Shown piece after piece: positions 58,566 through 61,632 of a stretch of DNA of 64,000 nucleotides; within the stretch, counting starts at the first letter, position 1, and every line of letters begins with the position of its first letter. A model generated the notes under the pieces. It saw nothing but the letters and a program-made list of their open reading frames with translations, was not told where the DNA came from and did no database searches. A program made the translations under genes and the position numbers. Location: positions 32,001 to 96,000 of IMG/VR virus record IMGVR_UViG_3300034072_001149, one strand, 5' to 3'. The stretch is from a virus.

Positions 58566-58876
58566 TAGATTTCTCCTCCAAAAGTCAGTTTAAAAAGCAG
58601 TGCGGTGTCACGGTTCTCGAAATACCACTTATCGGCACCACCGTTGTGCCAAAAGCTACCCTGTTGTTCCTTACACCAGGTCATCATTTCCGACAACGGA
58701 CCACCTTTTTGAATATTAACGGTGGTACATTCCGGCCAAGCTTCCCGGAGTCGCTTACTCCAGTGTTTGTCTCGAGTGCTCTGTCCAACTGGTGGACAGA
58801 ACTTGAGGCCACATTCCCTCCAAGCTTTGATATAAGCTTGGGTGGCAATTGACTGGGCTGTGTTGAAGTCCATCAT
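58565..58876 (-). CDS. Hypothetical protein (DAxxFKL family)
   Basis: MMTWC...WYFENRDTALLFKLTF. Confidence 0.7.
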   Translation of the reverse strand: MMDFNTAQSIATQAYIKAWRECGLKFCPPVGQSTRDKHWSKRLREAWPECTTVNIQKGGPLSEMMTWCKEQQGSFWHNGGADKWYFENRDTALLFKLTFGGEI

Positions 58877-59334
58877 CAGCTGACCGCCGAGAATCGCTTC
58901 GTGATTGCGTGGGCTTGTTCTTTGGTGCAGGGACCAATGCCAAGCGCAGTCACAATGGGCTGACCATCAAATGCCGTTCCCGGCACTACATGGTTCTTGT
59001 CAATGATGAGGGAAGTAATCAGACCAGCTTCCTGAGCCGCCTCATACGCTCGCAGGATCGCTGCTTCGTTCTTGGCTTTGAGGATGATCTGAGTGCCGAT
59101 AAAGTCCGGGCCCTGGTAAACGCGCAGGAGCTCAGGATCTCGACGGCTAGCAAGAAGCACACAATTCTTGGCAGCGTGACAAGCCTGGCTTGCCAACTTG
59201 CCTGGCTTCATATCCAGGTCGCCTCGAATGATGCTGTAGATGCGAAGCTTTTCAGACGCAGCTTCGAAGGCGTCATAGTCGTTGTCGTTGTCGTAACGAG
59301 CAGCGGCTTCCTACAAGAAAGAATTCGTGATCAT
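58876..59334 (-). CDS. Peptidyl-tRNA hydrolase Pth2 with in-frame TAG at codon 8
   Basis: Promoter plus AAGGA SD plus ATG 59334; MITNSFL*EAAARY...KLRIYSIIRGDLDMKPGKLASQACHA...TALGIGP; TAG at 59311-59313. Confidence 0.85.
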
Positions 59335-59375
59335 TGTCGTTCCTTTTGGTTACTGTCCAACATCGGACAAGCTTC

Positions 59376-59403
59376 AACATAAGAGGGTTTCAGGATATGT
59401 CAA
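59376..59403 (-). promoter_or_regulatory. Sigma70-type early promoter of the Pth2 gene
   Basis: TTGACA (59403-59398), 16 nt, TATGTT (59381-59376). Confidence 0.6.
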
Positions 59404-59416
59404 CCGTCTTTTTGAA

Positions 59417-59776
59417 TTATTCTCTCCAACGCAATTTGAACATCATTGCGTCTTTGCCATTTTCAAAGATAACTCCCACACTGGACGAGCAACCGCTGGT
59501 CCATCCTGCTTTTTTGAAGTCACCAAACTTTACATTGCTTTCAAGCCATGGTAACATTTCTGAAAAGGTGGAGGCTATGAATCCAGTGATTCTAACCAAA
59601 TACCATCCTGGATATTTGGAATTCACGGTATCAACAAAATCAAGATCGGGGAAATCGTCTTCCTCAAACATACTGTTGAGTTTGGCTTCTCCCAAGACAC
59701 CATCGGTCTCAGGTTCCGCTACATCGTCGAACCATTCTTCGACGTGATCTGTATTTTCATTACGATAGTAGGGCAT
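59417..59776 (-). CDS. Hypothetical protein (DAxxFKL family)
   Basis: MLPWLE...VIFENGKDAMMFKLRW. Confidence 0.7.
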   Translation of the reverse strand: MPYYRNENTDHVEEWFDDVAEPETDGVLGEAKLNSMFEEDDFPDLDFVDTVNSKYPGWYLVRITGFIASTFSEMLPWLESNVKFGDFKKAGWTSGCSSSVGVIFENGKDAMMFKLRWRE

Positions 59777-59792
59777 TTTCTCAACTCACTCT

Positions 59793-59867
59793 TTAAATCA
59801 AACCATAGACGGATTGATAGTGAGGAGGAGCCCGAGGAGCCTAGTGTTGGGTAAGAATCTTTTTCAT
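59793..59867 (-). CDS. Candidate mini-ORF/leader peptide MKKILTQH*APRAPPHYQSVYGLI with in-frame TAG and RAPP motif
   Basis: ATG 3 nt after the upstream TAA; TAG at 59841-59843; CGG GCT CCT CCT; TAA at 59793-59795. Confidence 0.5.
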
Positions 59868-59870
59868 GCC

Positions 59871-60257
59871 TTACTTATACTGATCTAACATATAAGAGTC
59901 AATATTCAAGGACAGTTTGGCAATGAGAGCATCATTGGCTGTTTGGGTTCTGACTACTAGGCGCATCTGATATTCAGAACCACTTGAAAAGTCATCATCA
60001 ATTTCCATAAAACTAAAGAAATGACCTTTTATACAATCCAAGATCTGACGGAAGATTTCGGGATTGGGCCAATAGAAAAATGAAGGATAAACACAAACAA
60101 ATGGCTTACCATAAAATACGAAGTCAAGTGGGGTATCAGACGTCCAGTCTATGGTAGCGACTGGTTCAGTAAATCTCCGATTAAGAGAACCGTAGATACA
60201 GTCTTTACTAGTCCTGTAGACTGTTTTGACTAGCGGTCGACTAGTTGAGGAGATCAC
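59871..60257 (-). CDS. Hypothetical protein
   Basis: Fills the gap in a co-directional cluster; NDALIAKL tail; start uncertain. Confidence 0.55.
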   Translation of the reverse strand: MISSTSRPLVKTVYRTSKDCIYGSLNRRFTEPVATIDWTSDTPLDFVFYGKPFVCVYPSFFYWPNPEIFRQILDCIKGHFFSFMEIDDDFSSGSEYQMRLVVRTQTANDALIAKLSLNIDSYMLDQYK

Positions 60258-60684
60258 GATCTGCGGCCAGATTCAAGATGGTACGATAAACTCGCATGTT
60301 GGGACGATAAGGACCTCGCCCAAAATACTTGTTGTCGTCCCCGTAGAGGGCCTTTTCGAGGGCCGCAGCAACAGCCGCGCTCCTGCATTGCCCCATGAGG
60401 CAGTGGACGTAGATGACGCTAACACCGGCAGTTTCCATCTCCTTGTAGAAGTCAAGGATCTGACCGGCGTGATCCTCATTGAAGAGGATACGAGTTTCAT
60501 TCTCGGGCTCGCCGTTCTTGCAATCGTCAATATCATGAAACTGGAGGTTGAGTCTTCCGATCAGGAAGTCGTTCTCATGAACTACTGGGAAATCACCCTT
60601 CTCACAGATGCTTATCAGAGCCCACGGCTTCTCAGGCGGACTTACTGCCATCATAGTGGCACGGCTGTAGACAACAAACTTCAT
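60241..60684 (-). CDS. Protein-tyrosine/dual-specificity phosphatase-like protein
   Basis: VHCLMGQCRSAAVA (HCxxGxxRS); PN..VY; ends in TAG. Confidence 0.85.
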   Translation of the reverse strand: MKFVVYSRATMMAVSPPEKPWALISICEKGDFPVVHENDFLIGRLNLQFHDIDDCKNGEPENETRILFNEDHAGQILDFYKEMETAGVSVIYVHCLMGQCRSAAVAAALEKALYGDDNKYFGRGPYRPNMRVYRTILNLAADRDLLN

Positions 60685-60714
60685 TACACCAGTCTACAGC
60701 ACAAAGCCTATATG

Positions 60715-61503
60715 TCAACCATCAATAGGTGGGATCTTATTGATATCATCGCGCTGGGCCTGATACCAGTTGTAAACGCAACGATCCAGACCAATAGCAA
60801 TTTCAAGGACCAGAGCGTCCTTTTCCACAATGTCTTTCTTGCCCTGAAAGGTCAGCTTCTGCGGGAAATCAGTTCGTAGACTGATCGAGCAAACTTCCAT
60901 CCACTTGTCGCCGTTCCAAATCTCGACATCCATGGTTCTCTTGCTGTAAGAGGGCAGGCGATCGCTTTCGACAATACGGGTTGGCAAATGGACCATAGCG
61001 GCAATCATCTGCTGGACCTTGGTCAGCATGGCTTCCTGATAGTCCATGCCGGTATCCGCAGTAAAGATACACTGGAATTCCTGCTGGTAGAATTCCTTCA
61101 AGCGCATATGCTTGGTTGGCTGGACAATTTCCCTGCGAAAGCTTTTGCCAGCTTGCCACACAACCAAGGGAGGGAAAACCTTGGGATGAACATTGTTGAG
61201 TAAGTGCTGGGCATAAGCATAGCTACCCGGCGTGGTCTCCGGACGCAAAGCCAGCTCACGAGGGGCATTCTCAACCCGATGGTCTCCCCACTGAAGCCAG
61301 ATGTCATCCTCGGTATAGTTGACGTTTAGGAGATCTCGGGGATTGAGAAGCGGGGCTTCGATCATGAAGAACTTCCAGCGATCATTCATAGCCAGGAGGT
61401 CAGCCTGCACCCTCGCGGCAAAGAAGTCCCGCATGGTTTCCCGCAAGCGGATCTCTTCCTCATTCCAAAAGACGAGACCGTTGATGTTGAAGACGTTCTG
61501 CAT
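60715..61503 (-). CDS. Class II aminoacyl-tRNA synthetase catalytic core (alpha2 GlyRS-like) without anticodon-binding domain
   Basis: EAPLL (motif 1), LRPETT, GKSFRRE...MRLKEFYQQE (motif 2), EIAIGLDR (motif 3); only 262 aa, ending shortly after motif 3. Confidence 0.85.
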   Translation of the reverse strand: MQNVFNINGLVFWNEEEIRLRETMRDFFAARVQADLLAMNDRWKFFMIEAPLLNPRDLLNVNYTEDDIWLQWGDHRVENAPRELALRPETTPGSYAYAQHLLNNVHPKVFPPLVVWQAGKSFRREIVQPTKHMRLKEFYQQEFQCIFTADTGMDYQEAMLTKVQQMIAAMVHLPTRIVESDRLPSYSKRTMDVEIWNGDKWMEVCSISLRTDFPQKLTFQGKKDIVEKDALVLEIAIGLDRCVYNWYQAQRDDINKIPPIDG

Positions 61504-61555
61504 TTTTTATATCCACTAGTTCGATGAATTCATTGCCGTTAAGGCAAGTTGTCTT

Positions 61556-61632
61556 TGGCGCCCTTACCGAGACTTGAACTCGGGACCCACAGATTTAGAG
61601 TCTGTTGCTCTGACCAACTGAGCTATAAGGGC
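61556..61632 (-). tRNA. Amber suppressor tRNA (anticodon CUA)
   Basis: Full cloverleaf GCCCTTA TA GCTC AGTTGGTCA GAGC A ACAGA CTCTAAA TCTGT GGGTC CCGAG TTCAAGT CTCGG TAAGGGC G CCA. Confidence 0.93.

What the first reader, a model, noticed from the sequence alone, without database searches (positions are those of the whole stretch)
58876..61632. Candidate self-contained amber-suppression switch: Sup-tRNA(CUA), mini-synthetase, amber-gated Pth2 and amber-gated RAPP peptide
Seen: within 2.8 kb on one strand lie a CUA-anticodon tRNA, a class II aaRS core 53 nt downstream of it, a phosphatase ending in TAG, a mini-ORF with TAG at codon 9 followed by RAPP, and a Pth2 gene with TAG at codon 8. The rest of the window uses the standard code: there is no internal TAG in the 3466-aa or other structural ORFs, and TAG ends 5 of the roughly 65 genes. 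Established: phages with genome-wide code 15 (Lak, some crAss-like) carry Sup-tRNAs and have many internal TAGs, which is not the pattern here. Inference: this may be a dedicated, possibly orthogonal tRNA/synthetase pair that acts as a conditional switch licensing a few translation-quality-control genes rather than recoding the genome.
Basis: partly seen in the sequence, partly recalled or inferred. Interest (0 to 1): 0.95.

Follow-up and report, generated by a model that had tools for sequence, protein, structure and literature searches.

The report
Suppressor-tRNA-gated Pth2 and leader switch
A giant phage that otherwise uses the normal genetic code carries its own UAG-reading tRNA and keeps a UAG stop near the start of two reading frames (a tRNA-recycling enzyme gene and a ribosome-stalling leader peptide), so both are probably read to the end only while that tRNA overrides the stop; the neighbouring mini-synthetase is not needed for this.

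Summary

Two of them are under selection.
- **Pth2 TAG.** It is kept in the window and in 7 related 416-465 kb phage genomes, with coding-type substitution on both sides. Distant huge phages keep an early stop in Pth2 that matches a nearby suppressor: TAG with CUA, TGA with UCA. This includes cultured Phosso and Atu_ph07.
- **Leader.** The mini-ORF M..HH-TAG-xxR(A/G)PP is kept in 8 of 8 genomes, directly upstream of an unknown 119-aa gene. In each, a predicted hairpin pairs the Pro-Pro codons with that gene's ribosome-binding region.

The genome otherwise uses the standard code. Pth2 is the only gated gene found in the 159 kb contig and in a complete 436 kb relative.

The phosphatase TAG is an ordinary, unconserved stop. 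The synthetase-partner idea is not supported: three complete gated genomes lack the synthetase, and three genomes that have it carry ungated Pth2.

This scan has noted the Pth2 gate before on other DNA. I found no paper describing it. Nothing here is experimental.

The parts
61556..61632 (-). Amber-suppressor tRNA, anticodon CUA, discriminator G73, CCA encoded.
   Evidence: ARAGORN. Rfam RF00005 at 73 bits. Eight homologues show compensatory changes in all stems, with an invariant CUCUAAA anticodon loop and G73.
59793..59867 (-). Leader mini-ORF MKKILTQH-TAG-APRAPP.... The TAG is at 59843..59841, the RAPP codons at 59834..59823, and the frame ends in TAA at 59795..59793.
   Evidence: Conserved as M..HH-TAG-(A/V)(P/Q)R(A/G)PP in 8 of 8 genomes; sequence after PP is not conserved. 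Phosso has MNKKYTHL-TAG-LHRSRSPP and Atu_ph07 has MK-TGA-IVFKPP.
59780..59827 (-). Predicted hairpin. Its 5' arm begins in the Pro-Pro codons and its 3' arm covers the purine-rich ribosome-binding region of the 119-aa gene. Coordinates are approximate.
   Evidence: Present in the minimum-free-energy fold of all 8 homologous leaders, with different inner-stem sequences. RNAalifold recovers only a 6-bp core.
59417..59776 (-). 119-aa gene of unknown function, the gene the leader would control.
   Evidence: Conserved directly downstream of the leader in the clade and in Phosso, G008, L062 and Atu_ph07. No Pfam or PHROG match. The model is low-confidence with only a generic alpha/beta C-terminal domain.
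59376..59403 (-). Promoter-like TTGACA-N16-TATGTT upstream of Pth2, followed by a conserved hairpin GTCCGATGTTGGAC at about 59355..59368.
   Evidence: Consensus scan. TTGAC and TA.GTTGA are invariant in 8 genomes and the hairpin shows compensatory changes.
58876..59334 (-). Pth2 (peptidyl-tRNA hydrolase 2 family) read through its TAG, 152 codons. The TAG is codon 8, at 59313..59311. An AAGGAA Shine-Dalgarno lies 6 nt before the ATG.
   Evidence: Pfam PF01981 at 73.4 bits, covering residues 32-149. TAG in 8 of 8 genomes. Synonymous/non-synonymous differences are 177/138 in codons 9-41, against 48/292 and 43/295 in the shifted frames.
60715..61503 (-). Mini class IIa synthetase core, GlyRS-like, with no anticodon-binding domain. 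It is a neighbour of the tRNA and not a required part of the switch.
   Evidence: Pfam and NCBIfam. PDB GlyRS match at 2.5e-9. AlphaFold2 pLDDT 87, best fold matches GlyRS and ProRS catalytic domains. Absence/presence tests.
60241..60684 (-). Phosphatase-like gene ending in TAG, an ordinary stop.
   Evidence: PHROG 5614 at 1.3e-17. Relatives end this gene in TAA or TGA.
58565..58876 (-). 103-aa gene, a weak paralogue of the 119-aa gene, directly after Pth2.
   Evidence: BLASTP E=0.014 over the C-terminal 45 residues. Syntenic in all relatives.

Best explanation
The phage carries a two-target translational switch keyed to its own amber-suppressor tRNA.

**Pth2.** It is transcribed from its own conserved promoter-like element. 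Its reading frame opens with M-I-T-N-S-F-L and then UAG. Without a charged suppressor tRNA, the ribosome terminates after 7 residues and no active enzyme is made. The next canonical start codon would remove the first beta-strand of the fold. With the suppressor, full-length Pth2 is made in proportion to suppression efficiency.

**Leader.** The leader MKKILTQH-UAG-AP-RAPP precedes the 119-aa gene.
- Without suppression, ribosomes leave at codon 9. A hairpin between the Pro-Pro codons and the gene's ribosome-binding region stays closed.
- With suppression, the ribosome runs onto RAPP or RGPP, the two strongest known arrest motifs. It sits on the 5' arm of the hairpin and frees the ribosome-binding site.

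The inserted amino acid probably does not matter, and the tRNA is probably charged by a host or other synthetase, not by the adjacent mini-synthetase.

**What is shown and what is inferred.**
- Shown: the sequence anatomy, its conservation, and the covariation of stop codon with anticodon.
- Inferred: that the tRNA is expressed and charged, that read-through occurs, that the ribosome stalls at R(A/G)PP, and what the circuit is for.

My best guess at purpose is that peptidyl-tRNA clean-up capacity, plus an unknown partner protein, is coupled to the level of suppressor activity.
For: **Conservation of the Pth2 gate**
- TAG at Pth2 codon 8 in the window and 7 relatives, with synonymous changes in the 7 codons before it and the 33 after it.
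- No ATG, GTG or TTG lies between the TAG and residue 42, while the PTH2 domain begins at residue 32.

**Link to the suppressor tRNA**
- The tRNA is conserved with compensatory changes.
- In 36 Pth2 loci from IMG/VR, most carry a stop 2-10 codons after an upstream ATG. A CUA tRNA lies within 6 kb in 21 of the TAG-gated loci. Both TGA-gated loci that contain a suppressor carry UCA. No mismatched pair was seen.
- The 24 mini-aaRS loci outside the window's own clade (L008-L031) held no CUA tRNA among about 83 tRNA genes.

**Cultured phages**
- Phosso has MKY-TAG and a CUA tRNA in the syntenic position.
- Atu_ph07 has TGA at Pth2 codon 7 and at leader codon 3. Its paper also reports a single UCA suppressor (PMC6102473).

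**Leader**
- Conserved in 8 of 8 genomes, with only RAPP or RGPP at the motif. These are the two strongest arrest motifs (PMC12992588, abstract).
- A hairpin linking the PP codons to the ribosome-binding region is predicted in 8 of 8. The same pairing is visible by eye in Phosso, L062 and Atu_ph07.

**Standard code elsewhere**
- TAG ends 16 of 189 genes in the contig and 51 of 618 in the complete relative.
- Internal TAGs with coding flanks are no more frequent than TAA or TGA controls.
- Pth2 is the only gated gene found.
Against: - Nothing is experimental. Expression, charging, read-through and stalling are all inferred.
- TAG still ends about 8% of the phage's genes, and these show no extra back-up stops. 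Strong suppression should be costly, so suppression may be weak or brief.
- The consensus fold of the leader region is weak: a 6-bp core at -0.76 kcal/mol, with one compensatory pair. Most hairpin evidence comes from single-sequence folds.
- Several gated loci show no suppressor within 6 kb (L060-L063, L077, L079, L082). Except for Atu_ph07, I did not scan their whole genomes for one.
- XacN1 has CUA suppressors but an ungated, distant Pth2. The gate therefore does not explain every orphan suppressor.
Confidence: 0.75

Rival explanations
1. Dedicated tRNA-synthetase pair. The adjacent mini class II enzyme specifically charges the CUA tRNA, possibly with glycine or an unusual residue, which would make the switch self-contained and orthogonal to the host.
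For: The tRNA and the mini-aaRS lie on the same strand, 52 to 1,874 nt apart, in the window, 7 relatives and Phosso. The enzyme has no anticodon-binding domain, so an altered anticodon would not block recognition. Motifs 2 and 3 look intact in the GlyRS alignment.
Against: - No mini-aaRS was detected in complete genomes that have the gate: Atu_ph07, G007 and G008.
- The mini-aaRS is present with ungated Pth2 in G011, G012 and G013.
- The family has at least 1,901 members, mostly not next to a suppressor.
- The suppressor's acceptor stem varies freely and it has G73. The phage's tRNA-Gly genes keep GCG...U73.
- Discriminators of gate-linked suppressors vary between G, A and U across lineages.
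- Between the tRNA and the aaRS, other genes are inserted in several relatives.
Confidence: 0.07
2. Genome-wide or stage-specific TAG reassignment (code 15 type). Pth2 and the leader would simply be two of many recoded genes, with the rest lying outside the window.
For: The closest complete relative carries two CUA tRNAs. Recoded phages are known to carry suppressor tRNAs (bioRxiv 10.1101/2021.08.26.457843).
Against: In the complete 436 kb relative, TAG ends 51 of 618 genes. Only Pth2 has a TAG followed by a start-less coding stretch, and only 2 weak internal-TAG candidates appear against 8 for TAA and 3 for TGA. ORF coverage gains less from reading TAG as sense than from reading TGA as sense. 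The early-stop scan finds only Pth2.
Confidence: 0.04
3. The short frames before the stops are independent upstream mini-ORFs. They would act by termination, peptidyl-tRNA drop-off or re-initiation, with no tRNA-mediated read-through, and the suppressor tRNA would serve another purpose.
For: Very short ORFs are known to promote peptidyl-tRNA drop-off (lambda bar minigenes, from my own knowledge), and Pth is the enzyme that clears such products. Some gated loci show no suppressor within 6 kb.
Against: - The 33 codons after the TAG evolve as coding sequence in that frame and include the first strand of the PTH2 fold, with no canonical start available.
- Stop type changes together with the suppressor anticodon, in both Pth2 and the leader.
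- The conserved R(A/G)PP lies after the stop, so it would never be translated without read-through.
Confidence: 0.1
4. Artefact or decay. The TAGs would be assembly errors or pseudogene lesions.
For: None beyond the bare presence of an in-frame stop.
Against: The same codon occurs in 8 independent assemblies and, as an early stop, in over 25 distant loci and two cultured phage genomes, with purifying selection around it.
Confidence: 0.01

Closest known systems
Stop-codon-recoded phages with suppressor tRNAs (TAG or TGA reassigned; crAss-like, Lak and others; Borges et al., bioRxiv 10.1101/2021.08.26.457843)
   Same: A phage-encoded suppressor tRNA is needed to translate phage genes that contain in-frame stops. 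A regulatory role for the dependency has been proposed.
   Different: There the stop is reassigned across many genes, mainly late ones. Here the genome keeps TAG as a stop in about 8% of genes, and only one enzyme gene plus one leader carry the in-frame stop, always within the first 10 codons or so.
prfB (release factor 2) autoregulation through an in-frame UGA (my own knowledge)
   Same: A translation factor gene is interrupted early by a stop codon, so its output reports the cell's decoding or termination balance.
   Different: prfB is rescued by a +1 frameshift and senses its own product. Here rescue would be by a trans-acting suppressor tRNA, and a feedback of Pth2 on that tRNA has not been shown.
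RAPP/RGPP arrest peptides (ApdA, ApdP, ApcA; Streptomyces RAPP/RGPP leaders; PMC10951233, PMC7897499, PMC12992588)
   Same: A small upstream ORF ends functionally in R-A/G-P-P, lies directly before the regulated gene, and has a structure that hides that gene's ribosome-binding site.
   Different: Known examples sense protein export or insertion through an N-terminal signal. This leader has only 8 residues before a stop codon, so its input would be stop-codon suppression. Relatives use RSPP (Phosso) or KPP-stop (Atu_ph07).
Orphan suppressor tRNAs of standard-code jumbo phages (XacN1, PMC5852040; Atu_ph07, PMC6102473)
   Same: A standard-code jumbo phage with many tRNAs, a suppressor and a Pth gene. 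Atu_ph07 is a true relative with a syntenic block.
   Different: Those papers found no target for the suppressor. Here Atu_ph07's Pth2 and leader turn out to carry TGA, matching its UCA tRNA. XacN1's Pth is ungated.
Dimeric (alpha2) glycyl-tRNA synthetase, for the mini-synthetase
   Same: Class IIa catalytic fold. RPET, FRxE and G.DR motifs align to GlyRS.
   Different: Only 262 aa, with no anticodon-binding domain and no insertion domains. It scores 60.8 bits against a GlyRS family cut-off of 312.

Membership tests
tRNA (Rfam RF00005), amber suppressor | Cloverleaf scoring above the family threshold, with anticodon CUA at positions 34-36. | tested here: met
   73 bits against a threshold of 29. 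ARAGORN reads anticodon cta. Stems are kept by compensatory changes in 8 homologues.
Pyrrolysine system (tRNA-Pyl plus PylS) | A PylS synthetase is present in the genome. | tested here: not met
   No TIGR02367 match above the cut-off in the contig or in three complete relatives; the best hit is 33 bits against 178. The ARAGORN label 'Pyl' reflects only the anticodon.
Peptidyl-tRNA hydrolase 2 (Pfam PF01981) | Full-length domain match above the curated cut-off. | tested here: met
   73.4 bits against 23, profile positions 3-113 of 115, but only when the TAG is read through. NCBIfam Pth2 equivalogs score below their cut-offs.
Peptidyl-tRNA hydrolase 2 (Pfam PF01981) | Hydrolase activity on peptidyl-tRNA. 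| not testable with these tools
   Only conservation is available: K46, Q50, H53, D112 and H115 are invariant in 24 homologues.
Genome-wide TAG reassignment (code 15) | Many genes with in-frame TAG, and higher coding density when TAG is read as sense. | tested here: not met
   one gated gene per genome, and no excess over TAA or TGA controls.
RAPP-type regulatory arrest peptide | R-A/G-P-P at the functional end of a small ORF directly upstream of the regulated gene. | tested here: met
   RAPP in 5 and RGPP in 3 of the 8 genomes, 80-95 nt before the 119-aa gene's start.
RAPP-type regulatory arrest peptide | An mRNA structure that hides the downstream ribosome-binding site and is opened by the stalled ribosome. 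| tested here: inconclusive
   Single-sequence folds show it in 8 of 8. The alignment fold gives only a weak 6-bp core with one compensatory pair.
RAPP-type regulatory arrest peptide | Demonstrated ribosome stalling at the motif. | not testable with these tools
   Needs toeprinting or reporter assays.
Glycyl-tRNA synthetase (alpha2 type) | Full-length equivalog match, including the anticodon-binding domain. | tested here: not met
   NF003211 scores 60.8 bits against a cut-off of 312 and matches the core only. The model consists of the catalytic domain alone.
Dedicated (orthogonal) tRNA-synthetase pair | The synthetase and the suppressor or gate co-occur across genomes. | tested here: not met
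   Gate without synthetase in 3 complete genomes. Synthetase without gate in 3 genomes.

The most novel reading that the evidence does not exclude
The module is a homeostatic circuit that senses stop-codon suppression. Pth2 and the 119-aa protein would be made in proportion to suppressor activity, and would then act either on the suppressor's own acyl or peptidyl form or on the peptidyl-tRNA load that read-through creates. This would set the level of UAG read-through during infection. It would give the unexplained suppressor tRNAs of standard-code jumbo phages a defined function, and it would be a natural arrest-peptide riboswitch whose input is a tRNA.
Probability: 0.3. Interest if true: 0.9.

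Novelty: new variant of a known kind. Interest (0 to 1): 0.8.

Why it matters
Suppressor tRNAs in phages that use the standard code have had no known target. The XacN1 authors looked for one and found none (PMC5852040).

This work points to concrete, conserved targets: Pth2 and a stop-gated arrest-type leader. The stop codon changes together with the tRNA anticodon. Two cultured phage-host pairs carry the module, Phosso with Sinorhizobium meliloti and Atu_ph07 with Agrobacterium tumefaciens C58, so the idea can be tested directly.

If confirmed, it would be a natural counterpart of the amber-suppression switches used in synthetic biology. It would also be a new input class for arrest-peptide regulation, and it would suggest that phages tune the termination and rescue side of translation.

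Tried and rejected
- **DNA similarity to cultured phages.** Megablast of the region against the phage collection found nothing. Protein-level search was needed.
- **Sequencing runs.** Assembly error is excluded by conservation instead.
- **First TAG-flank scan.** My tblastn scan of TAG flanks against the relative was useless, because the genomes are so similar that all six frames align. I replaced it with codon-usage scoring.
- **Back-up stops after TAG-terminated genes.** No difference from TAA or TGA genes.
- **Phosphatase TAG as a gate.** Rejected, because it is not conserved.
- **119-aa protein.** No Pfam, PHROG or informative atlas hit. The fold model is poor (pLDDT 60), and the best structural matches (Z about 5-6) are generic ferredoxin-like, RRM or ACT folds.
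- **tRNA identity by similarity to the relative's 59 tRNAs.** Inconclusive. The nearest are Arg(UCU), Thr and Lys at 0.69-0.75 identity, not Gly, Gln or Trp.
- **Inserted residue from ungated Pth2 homologues.** The N-terminal extensions are too divergent to tell.
- **Hairpin motif upstream of Pth2 as a repeated element.** Only one exact copy in the window.
- **Pyrrolysine.** No PylS.

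
Full report
**Setting**

The window is bases 32001-96000 of a single 159.2 kb virus contig with 46% G+C. CheckV rates the contig 34% complete. Its closest relatives are complete 416-465 kb phage genomes, each with 52-59 tRNA matches (Rfam; ARAGORN finds 59 in G001). Cultured relatives are Sinorhizobium phage Phosso (469 kb) and Agrobacterium phage Atu_ph07 (490 kb). 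All features of the finding lie on the minus strand.

**Observation**

- **tRNA.** ARAGORN finds one tRNA in the window, at 61632..61556, with anticodon CUA. Rfam scores it 73 bits as a normal tRNA. ARAGORN's 'Pyl' label reflects only the anticodon. No PylS is present in the contig or in three complete relatives.
- **Synthetase core.** 52 nt downstream starts a 262-aa ORF that matches the class II core tRNA-synt_2b. Its closest relatives are dimeric GlyRS enzymes.
- **Other ORFs.** Next come a phosphatase-like ORF ending in TAG and a 128-aa ORF.
- **Mini-ORF.** It reads MKKILTQH-TAG-APRAPPHYQSVYGLI.
- **Downstream genes.** A 119-aa ORF follows, then Pth2.
- **Pth2.** Its frame reads MITNSFL-TAG-EAAARYDNDNDYDAFEAASEKLRIYSIIRGDLDM....

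The Pfam PTH2 domain starts at residue 32 of the read-through protein. That is 10 residues before the first ATG, GTG or TTG after the TAG. The protein therefore cannot be complete unless the TAG is decoded. My gene calls give 64 genes in the window, 5 ending in TAG.

**Is the Pth2 TAG real and selected?**

Seven IMG/VR relatives carry the same block. The block runs: CysRS, a 201-aa gene, a K+ channel gene in five of the seven, the tRNA, the mini-aaRS, the phosphatase-like gene, the leader, the 119-aa gene, Pth2, and the 103-, 84- and 190-aa genes.

In all eight genomes codon 8 of Pth2 is TAG. The seven codons before it keep M-[IL]-[TIS]-N-S-F-L through synonymous changes, and a Shine-Dalgarno sequence precedes the ATG.

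| Pth2 region (28 pairwise comparisons) | Synonymous | Non-synonymous |
|---|---|---|
| Codons 1-7 | 64 | 25 |
| Codons 9-41 | 177 | 138 |
| Codons 9-41, shifted frame 1 | 48 | 292 |
| Codons 9-41, shifted frame 2 | 43 | 295 |

The sequence is translated in this frame on both sides of the TAG. Assembly error and pseudogene decay are excluded.

**The suppressor tRNA**

The eight homologous tRNAs differ by compensatory changes in the acceptor, anticodon and T stems. They keep the anticodon loop CUCUAAA and G73. They lie 52 to 1,874 nt upstream of the mini-aaRS on the same strand.

**Code usage elsewhere**

I used a codon-usage-trained gene caller.

| Genome | Genes | TAA | TGA | TAG |
|---|---|---|---|---|
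| Window's contig | 189 | 97 | 76 | 16 |
| Complete relative G001 | 618 | 301 | 266 | 51 |

- Pth2 is the only gene in either genome with an upstream in-frame TAG followed by a long start-less stretch of strong coding score.
- Internal TAGs with coding flanks are no more common than TAA or TGA controls.
- A search for an SD-preceded ATG with a stop 2-12 codons later, in frame with a gene, returns only Pth2 for TAG.

The phage uses the standard code. The gate is specific to one gene.

**A wider pattern**

I searched IMG/VR with a Pth2 alignment and recovered 36 loci.

- Most Pth2 homologues, down to about 40% identity, have a stop 2-10 codons after an upstream ATG.
- 21 TAG-gated loci contain a CUA tRNA within 6 kb, often directly upstream.
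- The two loci with a UCA tRNA (L066, L067) have TGA as the gate.
- No mismatched combination was seen.
- By contrast, the 24 mini-aaRS loci outside the window's own clade (L008-L031) held about 83 tRNA genes and no CUA tRNA.

In cultured Phosso the gene opens MKY-TAG-VEEK, and a CUA tRNA sits in the syntenic position.

In cultured Atu_ph07 it opens MIGEHF-TGA-INYEE. This agrees with the published description of a single UCA suppressor (PMC6102473).

The discriminator base of gate-linked suppressors varies between G, A and U across lineages, and one has a long variable arm. Different amino acids are therefore probably inserted in different phages. The stop acts as a gate and not as a code for a special residue.

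XacN1, whose authors could find no target for its CUA suppressors (PMC5852040), has an ungated, distant Pth2. The gate does not explain every case.

**The leader**

The mini-ORF is conserved in all eight genomes as M..HH-TAG-(A/V)(P/Q)-R-(A/G)-P-P. It always lies 80-95 nt before the start of the 119-aa gene. Sequence after the second proline is free to vary.

RAPP and RGPP are the two motifs reported to give the most robust, EF-P-resistant arrest (PMC12992588, abstract). Neither occurs in any called protein of the contig (47,563 residues) or of the complete relative (126,421 residues).

In all eight sequences the minimum-free-energy fold has a hairpin. Its 5' arm starts in the Pro-Pro codons and its 3' arm lies 5-15 nt before the 119-aa gene's start. 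The inner stems differ in sequence. The alignment-based fold recovers only a 6-bp core, so I rate the structure as probable and not proven.

The same design is visible by eye in three more distant phages:

| Phage or locus | Leader | Pairing seen by eye |
|---|---|---|
| Phosso | MNKKYTHL-TAG-LHRSRSPP | TCTCCgCCATTTG with CAAATGGAGA |
| L062 | ...TAG...RDPP | CTCCTTT with AAAGGAG |
| Atu_ph07 | MK-TGA-IVFKPP-stop | CCTCCATA with TATGGAG |

In Atu_ph07 the leader's gate codon has switched to TGA, together with the Pth2 gate and the tRNA anticodon. Three elements therefore change together.

**The mini-synthetase**

- Its model is confident (pLDDT 87) and consists of a class IIa catalytic domain only. 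The nearest structures are GlyRS and ProRS.
- GlyRS-type motifs (RPET, FRxE, G.DR) are invariant in 26 family members.
- The family has at least 1,901 members, mostly in huge-phage contigs. Beyond the window's own clade it is not next to a suppressor tRNA.
- Three complete genomes with the gate and a matching suppressor have no detectable copy: Atu_ph07, G007 and G008.
- Three near-complete genomes with the mini-aaRS have ungated Pth2: G011, G012 and G013. A fourth, G010, has two gated copies.
- The suppressor's acceptor stem drifts freely and lacks the GCG...U73 set kept by the phage's own tRNA-Gly genes.

I conclude that the adjacency reflects clustering of translation genes in this clade. 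The enzyme is more likely a minimal glycine-activating enzyme for other substrates. This is inference, and its activity is untested.

**The phosphatase**

Its TAG stop is replaced by TAA or TGA in all eight relatives examined (seven IMG/VR relatives and Phosso). It is an ordinary stop.

**Mechanism proposed**

A charged suppressor tRNA is the input. There are two outputs.

- Full-length Pth2, made from its own conserved promoter-like element and 5' hairpin.
- The 119-aa protein. It would be released by a ribosome that has read through the leader's UAG and sits on R(A/G)PP, opening the hairpin that hides the ribosome-binding site.

The purpose is unknown. The most economical idea is that peptidyl-tRNA clearance is matched to suppressor activity, or feeds back on it.

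**Literature and earlier notes**

Searches of the held library found no description of a stop-gated Pth2 or of a stop-gated arrest leader. Earlier notes of this scan report the Pth2 gate in many other genomes, and one reports an RGPP leader. I re-derived both here independently.

Noticed in passing
window 61644-62105 (-): A 153-aa potassium-channel-like gene (Pfam Ion_trans_2, TVGYGD filter) sits between the CysRS block and the suppressor tRNA. It is present in five of the seven relatives.
   Followed up: partly
window 62767-64000 (-), continuing to contig position 96116: A phage-encoded cysteinyl-tRNA synthetase (449 aa in the contig), two genes upstream of the suppressor tRNA. It is syntenic in all relatives and in Phosso.
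   Followed up: partly
G001 (L046: contig 293258-293333; also 308345-308421 and 323401-323477): The complete relative has a second CUA tRNA, with A73, most similar to two 77-nt 'tRNA-Leu' genes (anticodons UAA and CAA). These lack the long variable arm expected of bacterial tRNA-Leu. That region is missing from the window's contig.
   Followed up: no
window 58565-58876 and 59417-59776 (-): The 103-aa and 119-aa genes flanking Pth2 share a C-terminal motif of about 45 residues (SEM..W....FEN..DA..FKL). They look like paralogues, and both stay next to Pth2 as far out as Atu_ph07.
   Followed up: partly
window 58311-58565 and 57727-58299 (-): The 84-aa gene resembles the N-terminus of the 190-aa gene. 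In Phosso, Atu_ph07, L060 and L062 it aligns inside the 190-aa homologue, which suggests a local duplication.
   Followed up: no
window 59355-59403 (-): A conserved TTGAC-N17-TA(T/A)GTTGA promoter-like element is followed by a hairpin, GTCCGATGTTGGAC, with compensatory changes. It lies directly upstream of the Pth2 Shine-Dalgarno in 8 of 8 genomes. The -10-like box and the hairpin loop share ATGTTG.
   Followed up: partly
window 59868-59885 (-) and homologous sites: TATAAGTA(A/G) lies 6-7 nt before the leader ATG in 6 of 8 genomes (TAAATAC in the other two). It may be a -10 box, which would make the leader mRNA nearly leaderless. The leader has no clear Shine-Dalgarno.
   Followed up: no
window 15910-17103: A 1.2 kb stretch has no confidently called gene. 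It holds one weak candidate for an internal TAG with coding flanks, at window 16497 (-).
   Followed up: no
G010 (L094, L098): One 543 kb phage has two adjacent Pth2 copies, both gated: MS-TAG-IP... and MTHISAADT-TAG-IS....
   Followed up: no
L082, L083: Some distant Pth2 genes carry two early TAGs (for example MNT-TAG-IDSPT-TAG-VDTT), a double gate.
   Followed up: no
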